This document shows positions 54,661 through 61,352 of a DNA stretch of 64,000 bases, piece after piece. Position numbers and translations under genes: made by a program. Location: assembly GCA_048940445.1 (NCBI GenBank), contig JBHLON010000012.1, positions 1 to 64,000 of the forward strand. The letters run 5' to 3'. A model generated the notes under the pieces. That model ran no database searches. It had not been told where the DNA came from and was given only the letters and a program-made list of their open reading frames with translations. The stretch comes from Promethearchaeota archaeon. Lineage in GTDB: Archaea; Asgardarchaeota; Lokiarchaeia; Sigyniarchaeales; SOKP01. Within the stretch, counting starts at the first letter, position 1. Each line of letters begins with the position of its first letter.

Positions 54661-54711
54661 ATCTTACTCATCACACCTTTTTTATTAAAATCGTTTCCTT
54701 TAGATAAAAAA

Positions 54712-56067
54712 TCATTTCAATTCTTGACCTTTTTTACCTTTCCCTTTTTTTCTTTGAATTTCTTCTTCTAAACTCTTCTTGACTCTCATTACATAATCGT
54801 ACACATTTTTGTTAAATTTTTTTAAATCTTCAGAACTCCAAATTTCCGAATTCCGGAATGGAAATTCCATTCCAAATTCTCTACTAATATTTATCTCGAG
54901 CTCTCTGGCTTTTTCTTTTAACTGTTCCCAATTCATATTCGCCCCTAAAATAGGCATAATGTTTATATTGTGCCTAAATGCTAATTTTAATTCATTGATA
55001 CAATCTTTTGAATAAGCGGAATTTTCTGTGAAAAAGATAATTAAAAGTTGACTTCGTGGAACTCTTGTCTCCATCCAATCATCGATATTTCCAACCATCC
55101 CTTCCTCACAATAATCTACTTTATAAATCCCTTTCTGTTTTTGTAAATATTTAGCAAGATTACTAATTTGATATTCATCATAATCTGTAATAGCATGACT
55201 GATAAATACTCGGATCCCTCTTTGTTTTACTTTCTTTCGTATAGCAAGTGAAATAGCCGCTATAATTGTTAATACAACGACACCTATTATAATAGCAGTT
55301 ACTACAATTTGCCAATCATTAGGTTGAGCCGTAAATTGTTTCACTATTTGCAATTCTTTCCAACTCATATTACCATCGGTATCGTTTGCATAAAAGTTGA
55401 TTTTAAACATTCCTAGAGGTATACTCTCCCAGATCACATAGTCTAAATATTCAGCTGTATCATTCTGGAGAAATTCCTTGAATGAAAGGGCACCAGATAC
55501 ATTATACCATATTTTATCTAAATTTTCATCGAATACAATTACCTTTATTAAAGGAGGTTCATCCCAATAAGTACTCGCCAGAGGTAACTGAATAATGATA
55601 TTAGGAAAAATATCCAAAACATTCACTGTTATAATAACTAAGATTGAAGTATAATTTGTTTTTTGAGCAGAAATGTTTAAATTGTTAATTCCTAAATTCA
55701 AACTGGCTGTGTTTATTAATACATAATAACTATTAAGCCCTTCTGTAAGTAAATCATTAATTGTTTCACCGGTTAATCCAACCGTAGCCCCGCTAATAAA
55801 GTTTCCAGTTAAAATCTCTGAATAAATAATTGTTATATTTAAAATCTCATTATAATCAATTTCGATATATTTTGTTTGAGTCTCATTTTGACTGTTTAGA
55901 AATATTGTTGTAATATCAGCTTCTGTAAAGGATGATTGGGGGTCTTCTATCGCTTTGTTAGATTTTTCCTGATTTATATTATTTAAGGGAAAAAACTTTA
56001 ATAGACTTAAAAGCAACACTAGACTTAATAAAGTTAAGAAGAATACTATAATTTCCTTTTTCTCCAT
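54712..56067 (-). CDS. Single-pass receptor-like protein: signal peptide, Ig-like ectodomain, TM, cytoplasmic TIR domain
   Basis: FYANDTDGN Ig-like motif and many N-x-S/T sequons; TM IVVTAIIIGVVVLTIIAAISLAI-RKK; RVFISH...S..C..EL..A...I.PI. Confidence 0.8.
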   Translation of the reverse strand: MEKKEIIVFFLTLLSLVLLLSLLKFFPLNNINQEKSNKAIEDPQSSFTEADITTIFLNSQNETQTKYIEIDYNEILNITIIYSEILTGNFISGATVGLTGETINDLLTEGLNSYYVLINTASLNLGINNLNISAQKTNYTSILVIITVNVLDIFPNIIIQLPLASTYWDEPPLIKVIVFDENLDKIWYNVSGALSFKEFLQNDTAEYLDYVIWESIPLGMFKINFYANDTDGNMSWKELQIVKQFTAQPNDWQIVVTAIIIGVVVLTIIAAISLAIRKKVKQRGIRVFISHAITDYDEYQISNLAKYLQKQKGIYKVDYCEEGMVGNIDDWMETRVPRSQLLIIFFTENSAYSKDCINELKLAFRHNINIMPILGANMNWEQLKEKARELEINISREFGMEFPFRNSEIWSSEDLKKFNKNVYDYVMRVKKSLEEEIQRKKGKGKKGQELK

Positions 56068-56173
56068 TGAATTTCGTGTTTATCTTGTATAATTCTCTAT
56101 AAATACACTTTATATCTAACTATTATTTAAGTCTTTTTAATCAAGTATTTCAGGATTAAGACTCTTTTTATTT

Positions 56174-56836
56174 TTAAAATTGTTTTCTTTGAAAATTAAT
56201 AATTGCAATTATAAGGAACGCTAATGTTAAGCTTATTCCAACTAATGATGTTAATAATATCGGATTTATAATTTGAATGAAAAGTATTGCTATAACTGAA
56301 AGTGCAGATAATTGATTTCCAACATAAACTGATAATATTGCTGCTGCTGCTACAGAACGAATTAATGTCCCGAAAAATACTCCTATTGAACAAGATATTG
56401 CCATTGCTGCCATAGTAGTTATAAGAGATTGAATAGTTATATCAGCAAAGGATTGAGAAGGAATACCAATTGTGAAATAATCGATGATTAAGCCAGCTAT
56501 TAAAGAAATTATAGTCGCTATGAATAAACATAAGTAAACCGCAAAAAATTTTGCTAATATAAGGTTATATCTTTTAACAGGTCTGATGAGGAATAGTTCA
56601 TATACATGTGAACTCATTTCATTTGCCATAGAGGTTCCTAGCATAGCTGATCCTAACGTTCCTCCTATTGATGCTGTAACTATGGCAACTAAAGTACTAA
56701 ATGGAAATCCTCCAGTATCTGATTGAAAGAAATGCATTATTATTGTCACTAAAGGCATTCCAATCCATAATATTATCATTACTTTTGATTTGTAAAAACC
56801 TTTTAACTCATCAAAAAACAGAATTTTCAAGCTCAT
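56174..56836 (-). CDS. ABC-2 type permease
   Basis: 6 TM; E.......LFLIRPV.R..LILAKF. Confidence 0.85.
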   Translation of the reverse strand: MSLKILFFDELKGFYKSKVMIILWIGMPLVTIIMHFFQSDTGGFPFSTLVAIVTASIGGTLGSAMLGTSMANEMSSHVYELFLIRPVKRYNLILAKFFAVYLCLFIATIISLIAGLIIDYFTIGIPSQSFADITIQSLITTMAAMAISCSIGVFFGTLIRSVAAAAILSVYVGNQLSALSVIAILFIQIINPILLTSLVGISLTLAFLIIAIINFQRKQF

Positions 56837-56838
56837 TT

Positions 56839-57780
56839 CTAACGTCCTCCAACATAGTGTAAATAAACTTCTTCTAAACTGGGGGTTACTAATGAAATAT
56901 TTCTTAATTTACAGTTATTATTCACAATTTCTTTCAAAATTTGATGTATACATAGATCAACATCAAAATTATGTTTTAAGTAGACTTTTTGAATATGTTG
57001 ATTTAAAATTTCAAGCTTTTCTACAAATTCAAAACGATCTATCTTGTTACACATATTTGTATCCATGGCATAGCCAATTTGAATTATATTTCCTATTTGG
57101 AAGTCTAATTGTAGCTCTTTGGGCGTTCCAATCTTTTTAATTTTACCTTGATTTAAAATCCCAATCTTATTGGCAACATCTTGCACATCACTTAAAATAT
57201 GTGAAGAAAATAGAATGGTCTTTCCTTCAGATCCTAACTGTTTAACCAAATTTTTAAATTGATATCTACTCATAGGATCTAATCCCGTAAGTGGCTCATC
57301 TAATATGAGTATTTCAGGATTACTTAATAAAGCTTGTGCTAACCTTAGTTTTTGGACCATACCTCCTGATAAATGTACAATCTTCTTATTTTGAAATTCT
57401 TTTAAGCTTACAAATTCTAATATCTCATCAATTCTAGATTTTAAAAATTCACTCTCTAAACCAGAGAGCTTCCCAAAAGTTATCAGAGCTTGATTAACAG
57501 TTCTCCATGATTGAAATCCTGCTTCTTGGGGGTGATATCCTAAAACTCTAGAGAGTTCATTATAATTAAGTCTTAGGTCATTTCCATTTATCAAAACATC
57601 TCCTGTATAATTTCTTATTAGTCCAACTAATATCTTAATTGTTGTTGTTTTACCAGCTCCATTAGGTCCGATATATCCAAAAATATCTCCTTTATTTATC
57701 GTAAATGATATTTTATCTAGCGCAAGTAATTCTTTATATTTTTTAGAAACATCACGAAATTGGATAAAGATTTCTGTCAT
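56839..57780 (-). CDS. ABC transporter ATP-binding subunit
   Basis: GPNGAGKTT, LSGG, ILDEP.TGLDP, SSH, SLEEVY. Confidence 0.95.
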   Translation of the reverse strand: MTEIFIQFRDVSKKYKELLALDKISFTINKGDIFGYIGPNGAGKTTTIKILVGLIRNYTGDVLINGNDLRLNYNELSRVLGYHPQEAGFQSWRTVNQALITFGKLSGLESEFLKSRIDEILEFVSLKEFQNKKIVHLSGGMVQKLRLAQALLSNPEILILDEPLTGLDPMSRYQFKNLVKQLGSEGKTILFSSHILSDVQDVANKIGILNQGKIKKIGTPKELQLDFQIGNIIQIGYAMDTNMCNKIDRFEFVEKLEILNQHIQKVYLKHNFDVDLCIHQILKEIVNNNCKLRNISLVTPSLEEVYLHYVGGR

Positions 57781-58273
57781 ATTTAGTTACCATGAATCAA
57801 TAGATAAATAAATTATGAAAGATAAGAATGTTTTGTATTCTAATGAGAGAAAATATTAAAACTTTAAGAACATACCCAACTCAAGAATATATCCCATTTT
57901 AATTAAGTTACAAAAAATATATGTGTAAATCTTCAAGATTATAGCAATGTGTAGATATCTATACCTAGTTAAGGAGAGAGAGAAAAATAGATAACAATAT
58001 CGACAGAAGGAAAAACATTCAAGAATCTTCTTTTTTTTGAACATCATAAATGCCTTTTAACAAAATAAAAATATTTAAATATGAAATATCACTCTCAAAT
58101 TGGGATTCTAATTCATTAAGTAGATGCATTGAATCAATAATATCAAGATTATTTAGGATTTTAAATGGTCTTAATCTGTTTTTAGGACTCTTTTATGCGT
58201 TATACTATATAGATGTTTTGATATAGGGGCCCTTAAGTTAGAATAATAAAGCAAAAGAAACTTATATCTAAAA

Positions 58274-59808: not shown

Positions 59809-60525
59809 TTATTTTTCTATTTGACGCCCTACACCAAAGTACATTAAATATCCACCTGCTAATCCTAAGATTACTCCTATTGCACTTATAATGATTCTGA
59901 ATGTTTGATCATTAAGAGTATTCGATAGAAAAATTCCGTACATAAAAATACATAGAGCGCAAAATCCAAATATAAAAAATTTCCACTTTTTTTTTAAATT
60001 TATATCTTCGAATCTACTATATATTTGAATTGAGAAATAGAGTAGAGGTACAATTATCACGGTTTCAACTATGAATACATATATAAAGAATCCAATACTC
60101 CAAACAGGAGAATAATTTGGATTCAGAGAAACTCCGGGTATAGGAGTGAATAAAAAGATAATCATAGCAAACATTGCAATACCATAGACAATAATAATAA
60201 TCAATTGTTTGCTTGTTGTAATCACTTTCTCAGACTTCAAAAGTATTAAATTAAACACCAGAAGGAATACAGGTGCATAAAATATACAAAAATTTGTAAT
60301 AAAGTTTAAAATGAGAATGGTAGACACATCAGTAAGAAATACATAAATGAAGTTTATGAATGAGCCAATTACAGCGGATATATAAAATGATGCGAAGATT
60401 ATATTCAATCGTTTTGTGTCTCGCTTTAGGGTCTTAATTGCTAAATAAAGAAAGAAGGCAAAAACCAATCCTTGTGCAACGAATACAGTAAGAATTCTCG
60501 TTGTCTCTAATTGTAATAATACCAT
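59809..60525 (-). CDS. Stand-alone 7TM membrane protein (HisKA_7TM-like), paralogue 1
   Basis: Seven hydrophobic segments; K.LKR...LN, PVWS..FFIY, LKKKWK.F..G. Confidence 0.75.
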   Translation of the reverse strand: MVLLQLETTRILTVFVAQGLVFAFFLYLAIKTLKRDTKRLNIIFASFYISAVIGSFINFIYVFLTDVSTILILNFITNFCIFYAPVFLLVFNLILLKSEKVITTSKQLIIIIVYGIAMFAMIIFLFTPIPGVSLNPNYSPVWSIGFFIYVFIVETVIIVPLLYFSIQIYSRFEDINLKKKWKFFIFGFCALCIFMYGIFLSNTLNDQTFRIIISAIGVILGLAGGYLMYFGVGRQIEK

Positions 60526-60641
60526 AAATTAATCACGGTTTTTTAATTTTTATTTGAATTTTGAATTTAATATTGTTATTTAATAATTTAAATGCATTTA
60601 ACATTTGCTAATGTTTTAAAAATAGAACATTTCTATAGCAT

Positions 60642-61352
60642 CTATAATTGCTTAGCAACACCATAATATATGAAATAAAAAGCAATTAATGTGGGTAATG
60701 AAATGATCGACCAAATTAACCTAAATCCAGGATCCGCCAATGTATTTGAGAAGGATGTACCGTAATATAGGAAAAAACAAGCAAATATTCCAATTAAAAA
60801 ATATTTCCATTTCTTTTTTAGTTCTTGATGTTCTAATTTAAGATAAATTCTTAATGCAAAATATATTGTAGGAACAATTGCAAAGAGACTACAAACTATC
60901 GTACTATAAATAAAAAATGGCCAGCTCCAAACAGGTTTCCAACTAGTTTTGGAGTTTATTGTGATTCCACCTGGAATAAATATTAATCCAAGTACAGCGA
61001 TCCCATAAAAAATAATAATTAATATTTGCGTAAGAAGTGTAATCACTTTATCAGATTTCCATAAAATTAATACAAATATAAGTAAAAATACAAGAGAAAT
61101 ACATAATAAGTAGTAAGTAATAAAGTGAAGGATAAATACTATAACTTCAATAAATATAAACGCATAGATTATATTTATGATAGCTCCAATTGCAGCAGTG
61201 AAATAAAATAAGCTCAAAATTAAATTTAAACCTTTAGATTCTCTTTTTAAAATTTTATAAGTCATAAATATGAAGAAGAAACCAAAAAAACCTTGTACTA
61301 TGAAGATTTGTATAAATCGGGGTAAATCTATTATTTGTAAGATAATTAACAA
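60642..61352 (-). CDS. Stand-alone 7TM membrane protein, paralogue 2
   Basis: Same motifs as its neighbour (QG, KILKR..K.LN, KS.KVIT, PVWS, LKKKWK, SNTL.D..FR). Confidence 0.75.
   Translation of the reverse strand: MLIILQIIDLPRFIQIFIVQGFFGFFFIFMTYKILKRESKGLNLILSLFYFTAAIGAIINIIYAFIFIEVIVFILHFITYYLLCISLVFLLIFVLILWKSDKVITLLTQILIIIFYGIAVLGLIFIPGGITINSKTSWKPVWSWPFFIYSTIVCSLFAIVPTIYFALRIYLKLEHQELKKKWKYFLIGIFACFFLYYGTSFSNTLADPGFRLIWSIISLPTLIAFYFIYYGVAKQL

What the first reader, a model, noticed from the sequence alone, without database searches (positions are those of the whole stretch)
54712..56067. IL-1R/Toll-like architecture: Ig-like ectodomain, TM, TIR
Seen: signal peptide, about two beta-sandwich domains with at least 8 N-glycosylation sequons, one TM, then a TIR domain retaining the glutamate in S..C..EL. 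Known: that glutamate is catalytic in NADase TIRs, and animal IL-1 receptors share this topology. Inference: a surface receptor that signals or triggers defence by TIR clustering, likely convergent with the animal receptors. It is co-oriented behind an ABC exporter that might secrete its ligand.
Basis: partly seen in the sequence, partly recalled or inferred. Interest (0 to 1): 0.75.

Follow-up and report, generated by a model that had tools for sequence, protein, structure and literature searches.

The report
Membrane TIR receptor-like protein, Lokiarchaeia
A Loki-type Asgard archaeon encodes a surface protein with two sequon-rich (probably glycosylated) beta-sandwich domains outside, one membrane helix and an enzyme-type TIR domain inside; this is the layout of animal IL-1/Toll receptors and it belongs to a Loki-restricted TIR family with swappable sensor parts, but the gene sits next to the ABC exporter only in this genome and its function is untested.

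Summary

The genome is a Lokiarchaeia (Promethearchaeota) MAG. The TIR belongs to a subfamily found almost only in that lineage: 50 of 301 Asgard genomes sampled, often several copies per genome, some in tandem. It comes in two forms: about 30% membrane proteins with varied ectodomains, and soluble LRR-TIR proteins.

The ectodomain is PKD/FN3-like, not animal Ig, and is built from modules reused in other surface proteins of this genome. The ABC-exporter link is not supported: the closest relative keeps the ABC pair with no TIR gene between it and DUF2804.

The best reading is an outside-in sensor whose clustering switches on a TIR NADase. That reading is untested, the usual Trp at E-4 is Asp, and neighbourhoods show no defence-island signal. 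The scan had noted this family before on other Lokiarchaeia DNA.

The parts
54712..56067 (-). Whole gene, 451 aa: membrane TIR protein (P0001)
   Evidence: Intact ORF. Orthologue-like proteins share 92% and 69% identity.
56098..56103 (-). TATA-like box (TTTATA) 31-36 nt upstream of the ATG: a likely own archaeal promoter
   Evidence: Read directly from the sequence. Inference only; no archaeal promoter tool was available.
55987..56067 (-). N-terminal segment aa 1-27: MEKKE followed by an 18-residue hydrophobic core (signal peptide or signal anchor)
   Evidence: Hydropathy peak 2.71 at aa 5-23. Present in relatives with complete N-termini.
55612..55950 (-). Ectodomain module D1, aa 40-152: all-beta, 4 sequons
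55318..55611 (-). Ectodomain module D2, aa 153-250: membrane-proximal 'stalk' beta-sandwich (NLD..WY...FYANDT.GN), 4 sequons
55231..55317 (-). Transmembrane helix with its basic cytoplasmic flank (aa 251-279; core 254-277, then RKKVKQR)
   Evidence: Hydropathy 3.15 and the positive-inside flank. Only about 8 residues separate the helix from the first TIR strand.
54769..55218 (-). TIR domain, aa 284-433
54991..54993 (-). Codon of E359, the glutamate of S..C..EL (candidate catalytic residue)
   Evidence: Translation. Invariant in 158/158 subfamily members. Aligns with the NE(L) of a canonical TIR_2 in the same genome, though that alignment is weak (hhalign E 0.12).
54715..54768 (-). C-terminal Lys-rich tail, the end of a long helix (aa 412-446)
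   Evidence: Secondary structure in the model. The tail is conserved in kind across the membrane clade.
54706..54711 (-). T6 run directly after the stop codon: a likely archaeal terminator
   Evidence: Read directly from the sequence. Inference.

Best explanation
The gene encodes a single-pass (type I-like) surface protein of a Lokiarchaeia archaeon, probably a glycoprotein. Two beta-sandwich modules face outward. One helix crosses the membrane, and a TIR domain of the enzymatic structural type sits about 8 residues below it in the cytoplasm. It belongs to a Lokiarchaeia-restricted TIR subfamily in which one conserved TIR is joined to interchangeable sensor parts: LRRs in soluble members, and beta-propellers, TSP3 repeats or Ig-like modules outside the cell in membrane members. 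The most likely mechanism is inferred, not shown. A multivalent external ligand or particle (a virus, a partner cell surface or a polymer) crowds the ectodomains. That brings the membrane-held TIRs together so that they form the composite active site seen in SARM1, plant and bacterial TIRs. E359 then cleaves NAD+, either depleting it or producing an ADP-ribose-derived signal. In this genome the gene is a lone accessory copy with its own promoter, inserted between DUF2804 and an ABC-2 exporter pair to which it has no conserved link.
Against: There is no biochemical evidence. The glutamate alone does not prove NADase activity; the survey PMC7075850 notes that its frequency does not track reported activity. 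The aromatic residue usually found 4 residues before the glutamate (W in SARM1, AbTir, plants and TLRs; from memory) is Asp here (D in 122/158). The family profile finds no solved TIR by sequence, even at E<=1, so the chemistry could differ. No defence context: P0001 has no PADLOC hit, and of 101 genes within 3.5 kb of family members in 20 loci few match a defence model (no model matched more than 3 genes), the most frequent being generic ABC-ATPase-type models. No conserved partner gene was found across the loci. Both ectodomain modules are generic surface-protein modules reused in non-TIR proteins, so specific ligand binding is not evident. The D1 model is poor.
Confidence: 0.55

Rival explanations
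1. Scaffold-type TIR signalling, as in TLR and IL-1R. The TIR does not cleave NAD+; on clustering it recruits other TIR proteins by TIR-TIR contacts.
For: The Trp at E-4 is missing. The genome encodes other TIR proteins that could be partners: a Ras/Roc GTPase-TIR on C89 and a TIR/ThsB/SLOG island on C71. In other genomes the same TIR subfamily also occurs in soluble LRR-TIR proteins.
Against: This genome has no second member of the same TIR subfamily (1 match at E<=1e-5). An invariant Glu in 158/158 members is easier to explain by catalysis. All the nearest structures are enzymes; MAL ranks only 35th in Foldseek and no TLR or IL-1R chain is in the top 50. No non-enzymatic TIR adaptor pathway is known in prokaryotes (my knowledge).
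Confidence: 0.2
2. A surface or adhesion protein whose TIR is a constitutive or housekeeping cytoplasmic module (an anchor or a nucleotide-processing enzyme), with no outside-in signalling.
Against: The same TIR is fused to classical sensor domains (LRR, WD40, LVIVD propellers) in more than 100 relatives. That is the pattern of a sensor-output pair, not of an anchor. The TIR is under the tightest constraint of any part of the protein.
Confidence: 0.17
3. A decaying accessory gene or an annotation artefact with no function.
For: It is a lone copy, inserted at a variable slot, and absent from the closest relative.
Against: The ORF is intact with promoter-like and terminator-like signals. Two orthologue-like proteins from other samples share 92% and 69% identity, with the TIR best conserved. 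All subfamily-invariant residues are kept.
Confidence: 0.05

Closest known systems
Enzymatic TIR domains: human SARM1, plant RUN1/RPV1/RPS4/L6, SPARTA TIR-APAZ, Acinetobacter AbTir
   Different: No detectable sequence similarity to any solved TIR, even with a family profile. Asp replaces the Trp at E-4. The first strand reads FISH(A). Extra invariant Cys320-Glu321. A long C-terminal helix with a Lys-rich tail. It is tethered to the membrane behind an ectodomain.
Animal IL-1 receptor family and Toll/Toll-like receptors
   Same: The overall layout: an extracellular binding part, one TM helix and a cytoplasmic TIR. A sequon-rich (likely glycosylated) ectodomain. Family-level expansion with varied ectodomains.
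   Different: The ectodomain is PKD/FN3/Big-like, with no cysteines, no Pfam Ig or LRR hit. The juxtamembrane linker is about 8 residues. The TIR is structurally nearest to enzyme-type TIRs, not to TLR or IL-1R TIRs. No MyD88-like adaptor is known here. There is no evidence of common descent of the architecture.
Soluble LRR-TIR proteins of Lokiarchaeia (same TIR subfamily), including one in cultured Promethearchaeum syntrophicum MK-D1 (NZ_CP042905.2; L152:1160-3049)
   Same: The same TIR subfamily with the same invariant residues and the same lineage restriction.
   Different: They are cytosolic, with LRRs as the sensor and a C-terminal extension of about 70 residues. Their TIRs form the sister grouping to the membrane clade.
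Thoeris ThsB and other bacterial TIR sensors
   Same: A TIR with a conserved Glu joined to a variable sensing part. The expected output is an NAD-derived signal or NAD depletion.
   Different: P0001 has no ThsB_TIR or PADLOC hit. No adjacent SLOG, Macro or SIR2 effector; the neighbours are an ABC exporter and DUF2804. Sensing would be extracellular. A separate Thoeris-like island does exist elsewhere in this genome.
Membrane-tethered TIR NADases: Dictyostelium TirC (PMC13142454) and bacterial Rst_2TM_1TM_TIR
   Same: A TIR held at a membrane by one helix. In TirC the tether restrains an active NADase.
   Different: Those proteins have no sizeable ectodomain. P0001 matches no model in PADLOC-DB v2.0.0; I did not check whether that release holds Rst_2TM_1TM_TIR models.

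Membership tests
TIR domain superfamily (Pfam TIR_2, PF13676) | HMM score above the curated gathering cut-off | tested here: met
   32.7 bits against a cut-off of 28, E 1.2e-7, aa 287-376. 39 of 43 membrane relatives also match.
TIR domain superfamily (Pfam TIR_2, PF13676) | Flavodoxin-like alpha/beta TIR fold | tested here: met
NAD+-cleaving (enzymatic) TIRs | Glutamate at the start of helix C | tested here: met
   E359 lies in SKDCINEL and is invariant in 158/158. Its equivalence to the known catalytic Glu rests on the motif, its position after strand C in the model and a weak hhalign alignment.
NAD+-cleaving (enzymatic) TIRs | Aromatic residue (Trp) four residues before the glutamate | tested here: not met
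   Position 355 is Asp (D in 122/158; the others are A, P, G, N or E). That a Trp is usual at this position is from my own knowledge.
NAD+-cleaving (enzymatic) TIRs | NADase activity dependent on oligomerisation | not testable with these tools
   Needs biochemistry or at least multimer modelling.
IL-1 receptor family | Immunoglobulin-superfamily ectodomains with intradomain disulfides | tested here: not met
   No Cys in aa 28-252. No Pfam Ig family at E<=0.1. The best fold matches are PKD, FN3, CBM and GOLD.
IL-1 receptor family | TIR of the IL-1R/TLR scaffold type | tested here: inconclusive
   No TLR or IL-1R chain among the top 50 structural matches. No sequence match to any solved TIR. Absence from a list does not exclude the family.
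Toll-like receptors | Leucine-rich-repeat ectodomain | tested here: not met
   No LRR family in P0001. In this TIR subfamily LRRs occur only in the soluble members.
Thoeris (ThsB plus effector) | ThsB-type TIR next to an effector that reads the signal (SLOG, Macro, SIR2 and others) | tested here: not met
   No ThsB_TIR or PADLOC hit. The neighbours are an ABC-2 exporter and DUF2804, and neither gene is linked to the TIR gene in the relatives searched.
Lokiarchaeial 'FISH-TIR' subfamily (membrane clade) | TM helix directly before a TIR with FISHA...YCE..(L/M).GNID..M...S..S.DC..EL | tested here: met
   Alignments A1 and A5. Starred clade of 30 rows, 29 of them membrane forms.

The most novel reading that the evidence does not exclude
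Lokiarchaeia, among the closest archaeal relatives of eukaryotes, possess a lineage-specific germline repertoire of TIR receptors. Membrane forms have swappable ectodomains and cytosolic forms have LRRs. In the membrane forms, this gene included, an external ligand is transduced across the membrane into TIR activation. That would be an outside-in TIR signalling or immune pathway in a prokaryote, convergent with or conceivably antecedent to Toll/IL-1R signalling.
Probability: 0.3. Interest if true: 0.85.

Novelty: new variant of a known kind. Interest (0 to 1): 0.62.

Why it matters
TIR domains link bacterial, plant and animal immunity. All characterised prokaryotic TIR sensors that I know of detect events inside the cell. 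A membrane receptor that senses outside and fires a TIR inside would be a new input mode for prokaryotic TIR signalling. It would sit in the archaeal lineage most relevant to the origin of eukaryotes. In four full-text searches for Asgard or other archaeal TIR proteins I found no description of this family. The family is large, at 161 clusters of 50% identity, and modular. A soluble relative exists in the cultured strain MK-D1, so the TIR chemistry can be tested directly. The practical corrections for this locus are that the ABC exporter is an accidental neighbour and that the 'Ig-like' domains are ordinary archaeal surface modules.

Tried and rejected
1. ABC exporter as a functional partner: rejected on synteny.
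2. Sequence link to solved TIRs: phmmer with the protein gave only chance-level UHRF1 hits. A 23-sequence family profile gave none at E<=1.
3. Known defence systems: P0001 and DUF2804 have no PADLOC hit, and the ABC ATPase matches only generic ATPase models. P0001 has no NCBIfam hit.
4. Defence-island context: of 101 neighbours of family members few hit any PADLOC model (no model matched more than 3 of them), the most frequent being generic ABC-ATPase-type models; one gene also matched DNA methyltransferase models.
5. A conserved partner gene across 20 loci: none was found beyond local synteny. In this genome it is split over two contig ends, with no TIR gene beside it in the assembled parts.
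6. Ectodomain homologues: a search of the 5.8-billion-protein set with aa 28-250 found only P0002, P0003 and the D2 repeats of P0164. The JGI metagenome scan found nothing.
7. Full-length AlphaFold left aa 25-167 below pLDDT 30. The ectodomain-only run improved D2 but D1 stayed weak, so the GOLD-like match for D1 is only a lead.
9. Rfam found nothing in the window.
10. A membrane-type member in cultured MK-D1: of the 4 TIR matches, the best is the soluble LRR-TIR, one is TIR-LRR-Zn-ribbon and one is soluble and rich in coiled coil; the fourth (159-aa frame, L160) was not inspected, and no membrane-type member was seen in the three inspected.

Full report
What is there.
Window 54712-56067 (-) is an intact ORF of 451 aa, P0001. 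Hydropathy shows an N-terminal hydrophobic core at aa 5-23 and one strong TM helix at aa 254-272. The helix is followed by RKKVKQR: 5 basic residues in the 15 residues after the helix, against 1 before it. By the positive-inside rule the C-terminal part is therefore cytoplasmic.

The stretch between the two hydrophobic segments has 8 N-x-S/T sequons, against 3.8 +/- 1.7 in shuffles (p about 0.02), and no cysteine. The cytoplasmic part has one sequon. Across 16 relatives with the same layout the sequon density is 2.23 per 100 aa outside and 0.55 inside. This independently supports the topology, because archaeal N-glycosylation uses the same sequon.

Pfam finds TIR_2 at aa 287-376, above the curated cut-off. 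The one open point is whether the N-terminal segment is cleaved.

Organism and range.
Named relatives are MAGs labelled Promethearchaeota (Lokiarchaeia), plus one labelled Odinarchaeota. The window is contig C104 of a 3.64-Mb, 93%-complete assembly.

The TM-TIR module (aa 250-451) finds matches in 50 of 301 genomes sampled across the phylum. All lie in the window's own family (44/68), a sister family (3/7) and two further families of the same class; the other 26 families gave none. Several genomes have five to ten or more matches, some of them in tandem.

A pattern scan of one genome for each of 185,579 species returned 79 loci. Nearly all are titled Promethearchaeota or Promethearchaeia; a few carry other Asgard labels, and two contigs are binned as bacteria. 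The cultured Promethearchaeum syntrophicum MK-D1 is among them. An exhaustive phmmer search of 1.84 billion representatives gave 291 hits at E<=1e-3 and 161 at E<=1e-10.

The family.
Of 162 members, 48 have a TM helix immediately before the TIR. Their outer parts vary: LVIVD propellers (14 of 43), bacterial TSP3 repeats (11), WD40/PQQ propellers (5), or, as here, beta-sandwich modules only. Of 70 soluble members, 66 are LRR-TIR proteins.

On a TIR-only tree the membrane/soluble label needs only 5 changes, against 40.6 when shuffled. P0001 sits in a well-supported clade of 29 membrane rows and 1 soluble row. One TM-TIR chassis has therefore been combined with many ectodomains.

E359 is invariant in 158/158. 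F288, S290, H291, C320, E321, S350, S353 and C356 are near-invariant. The residue 4 before the glutamate is Asp in most members.

The TIR.

By sequence the subfamily is remote. Neither the protein nor a 23-member profile matches any solved TIR. A profile alignment to a canonical TIR_2 of the same genome is weak (E 0.12) but places E359 on that domain's NE(L) glutamate.

From general knowledge, that glutamate is catalytic in SARM1, plant and bacterial TIRs, and the Cys at E-3 is shared with plant and TLR TIRs. The usual Trp at E-4 is missing here. The survey PMC7075850 warns that presence of the glutamate does not by itself predict NADase activity.

The ectodomain.

The ectodomain is thus 'Ig-like' in fold class only. 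It is assembled from generic surface modules. Outside this genome, D1 has recognisable relatives only in the two orthologue-like proteins P0002 and P0003.

Genomic context.
In the closest relative, G201 (neighbouring proteins 70-91% identical), the order is aminotransferase, 12-TM protein, DUF2804, ABC-2 permease, ABC ATPase, Na/Ca exchanger, HhH protein and 7TM pair. That order is kept, but DUF2804 and the permease are about 30 bp apart with no TIR gene between them. Four other species carry an MFS transporter, a PIG-L deacetylase, a sirtuin or other genes in that slot.

The TIR gene is therefore a lineage-specific insertion of about 1.5 kb at a variable spot. It has a TATA-like box 31-36 nt before its ATG and a T6 run after its stop. 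The ABC pair is a generic DrrA/ABC-2 type.

Among 20 loci of family members I found no conserved non-TIR neighbour. Few of 101 neighbouring genes match a PADLOC model (no model matched more than 3 of them), the most frequent being generic ABC-ATPase-type models.

Earlier notes of this scan on other Lokiarchaeia genomes pointed to a partner gene beside membrane-TIR arrays. I found a 575-aa membrane protein with a C-terminal NUDIX domain next to membrane TIR genes in 6 of 20 membrane-type loci and 0 of 56 others. These genomes are close kin, so the count is not independent. In this genome that gene is split across two contig ends (C65 and C55), with a P-type ATPase on each side and no TIR gene in the assembled parts.

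This genome has no second member of the subfamily. It does have other TIRs: a Ras/Roc GTPase-TIR fusion, and an island with two ThsB-type TIRs, a SLOG-cluster-3 protein and a 390-aa TIR_2 protein.

Mechanism.
The architecture is shown; the mechanism is inferred. The TIR is the most conserved part: 98% identity against 86-92% for the ectodomain versus P0002, and 83% against 65-69% versus P0003. The same TIR is fused to classical recognition domains in more than 100 relatives. It lies about 8 residues from the membrane.

The reading that fits best is a sensor whose ectodomain is crowded by a multivalent external ligand or particle, so that the TIRs associate and E359 cleaves NAD+. The outcome would be NAD+ depletion or an ADPR-type signal. 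Membrane tethering as a restraint on an active TIR NADase has a precedent in Dictyostelium TirC (PMC13142454). I put this reading at about 0.55.

The main rivals are non-enzymatic scaffold signalling (0.2), a surface protein with a constitutive TIR module (0.17) and a non-functional gene (0.05). Whether the biological role is antiviral defence, partner-cell sensing or something else is open, and the neighbourhoods give no defence signal.

Comparison and novelty.
The protein works, at most, like an IL-1R or TLR in layout. It is not a member of either family: it has no Ig-superfamily or LRR ectodomain, and its TIR is nearer to the enzyme type. It is a TIR_2-class TIR and a member of a Lokiarchaeia-restricted subfamily. 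Four full-text searches found no paper that describes Asgard or other archaeal membrane or LRR TIR proteins. The Asgard defence survey PMC11291487 mentions TIR only within DefenseFinder system names.

The scan had already noted the same family on other Lokiarchaeia DNA. I class it as a new variant of a known kind.

Noticed in passing
G000 contig C71:7197-11609 (L004:1486-1878, L005:1375-1794, L005:1852-2487, L002:1012-2184): A Thoeris-like island outside the window. It holds two small ThsB_TIR proteins (130 and 139 aa), a SLOG-cluster-3 protein (211 aa), a 390-aa TIR_2 protein and two unannotated genes between them.
   Followed up: partly
L001:1321-3057 (G000 contig C89): A 578-aa fusion of a Ras/Roc-type small GTPase (aa 7-166) with a C-terminal canonical TIR_2 domain (aa 433-556).
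   Followed up: partly
window 54661-58273, compared with L048-L052: The slot between DUF2804 and the Na/Ca exchanger varies within the genus. It holds the ABC-2 pair only (G201); ABC pair plus TIR gene (this genome); an MFS-like transporter (G057); PIG-L plus sirtuin (G264); MFS, PIG-L and sirtuin (G065); or a 6.5-kb block of metabolic genes (G109).
   Followed up: yes
L053:4213-5940; L076:3-1589; G000 C55:1-1094 and C65:8376-8651: A 575-aa protein with a TM helix near aa 412 and a C-terminal NUDIX domain lies beside membrane-TIR genes in 6 of 20 membrane-type loci, in both convergent and divergent orientation. In this genome it is broken across two contig ends and has no TIR neighbour in the assembled parts.
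   Followed up: partly
L055:3100-16417 and L056:6004-13595: Relatives of the same genus carry tandem arrays of 3-4 different TIR genes. These are a multi-TM TIR (548 aa), propeller-TM-TIR (about 545 aa), LVIVD+TSP3-TM-TIR (about 1070 aa) and a soluble 1221-aa WD40-TIR.
   Followed up: partly
L152:1160-3049 (Promethearchaeum syntrophicum MK-D1, NZ_CP042905.2): The cultured Asgard strain encodes a 629-aa soluble LRR-TIR of the same TIR subfamily. It also has a TIR-LRR-Zn-ribbon protein (L158:1513-2664). These are handles for experiments.
   Followed up: partly
L141 (DATKTW010000024.1) and L147 (JAAKFN010000113.1): Two contigs carrying family members are binned as bacteria (Nanopelagicaceae and Anoxychlamydiales MAGs). 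Mis-binning or horizontal transfer was not examined.
   Followed up: no
G000 C20:36807-42122; C104:70938-72317 (beyond the window's end); C84:42069-49513: The D2 'FYANDT' stalk module forms arrays of 5-8 copies in large surface proteins. Two tandem 1234- and 1250-aa surface paralogues on C84 carry D1-like modules and have no significant Pfam match (only a faint, sub-threshold Big_1 hit).
   Followed up: partly
window 59809-61352 and L048:8779-10320: The tandem 7TM paralogue pair downstream is kept in order in three relatives (84%, 79% and 60% identity for the first copy; about 40% between the copies).
   Followed up: no
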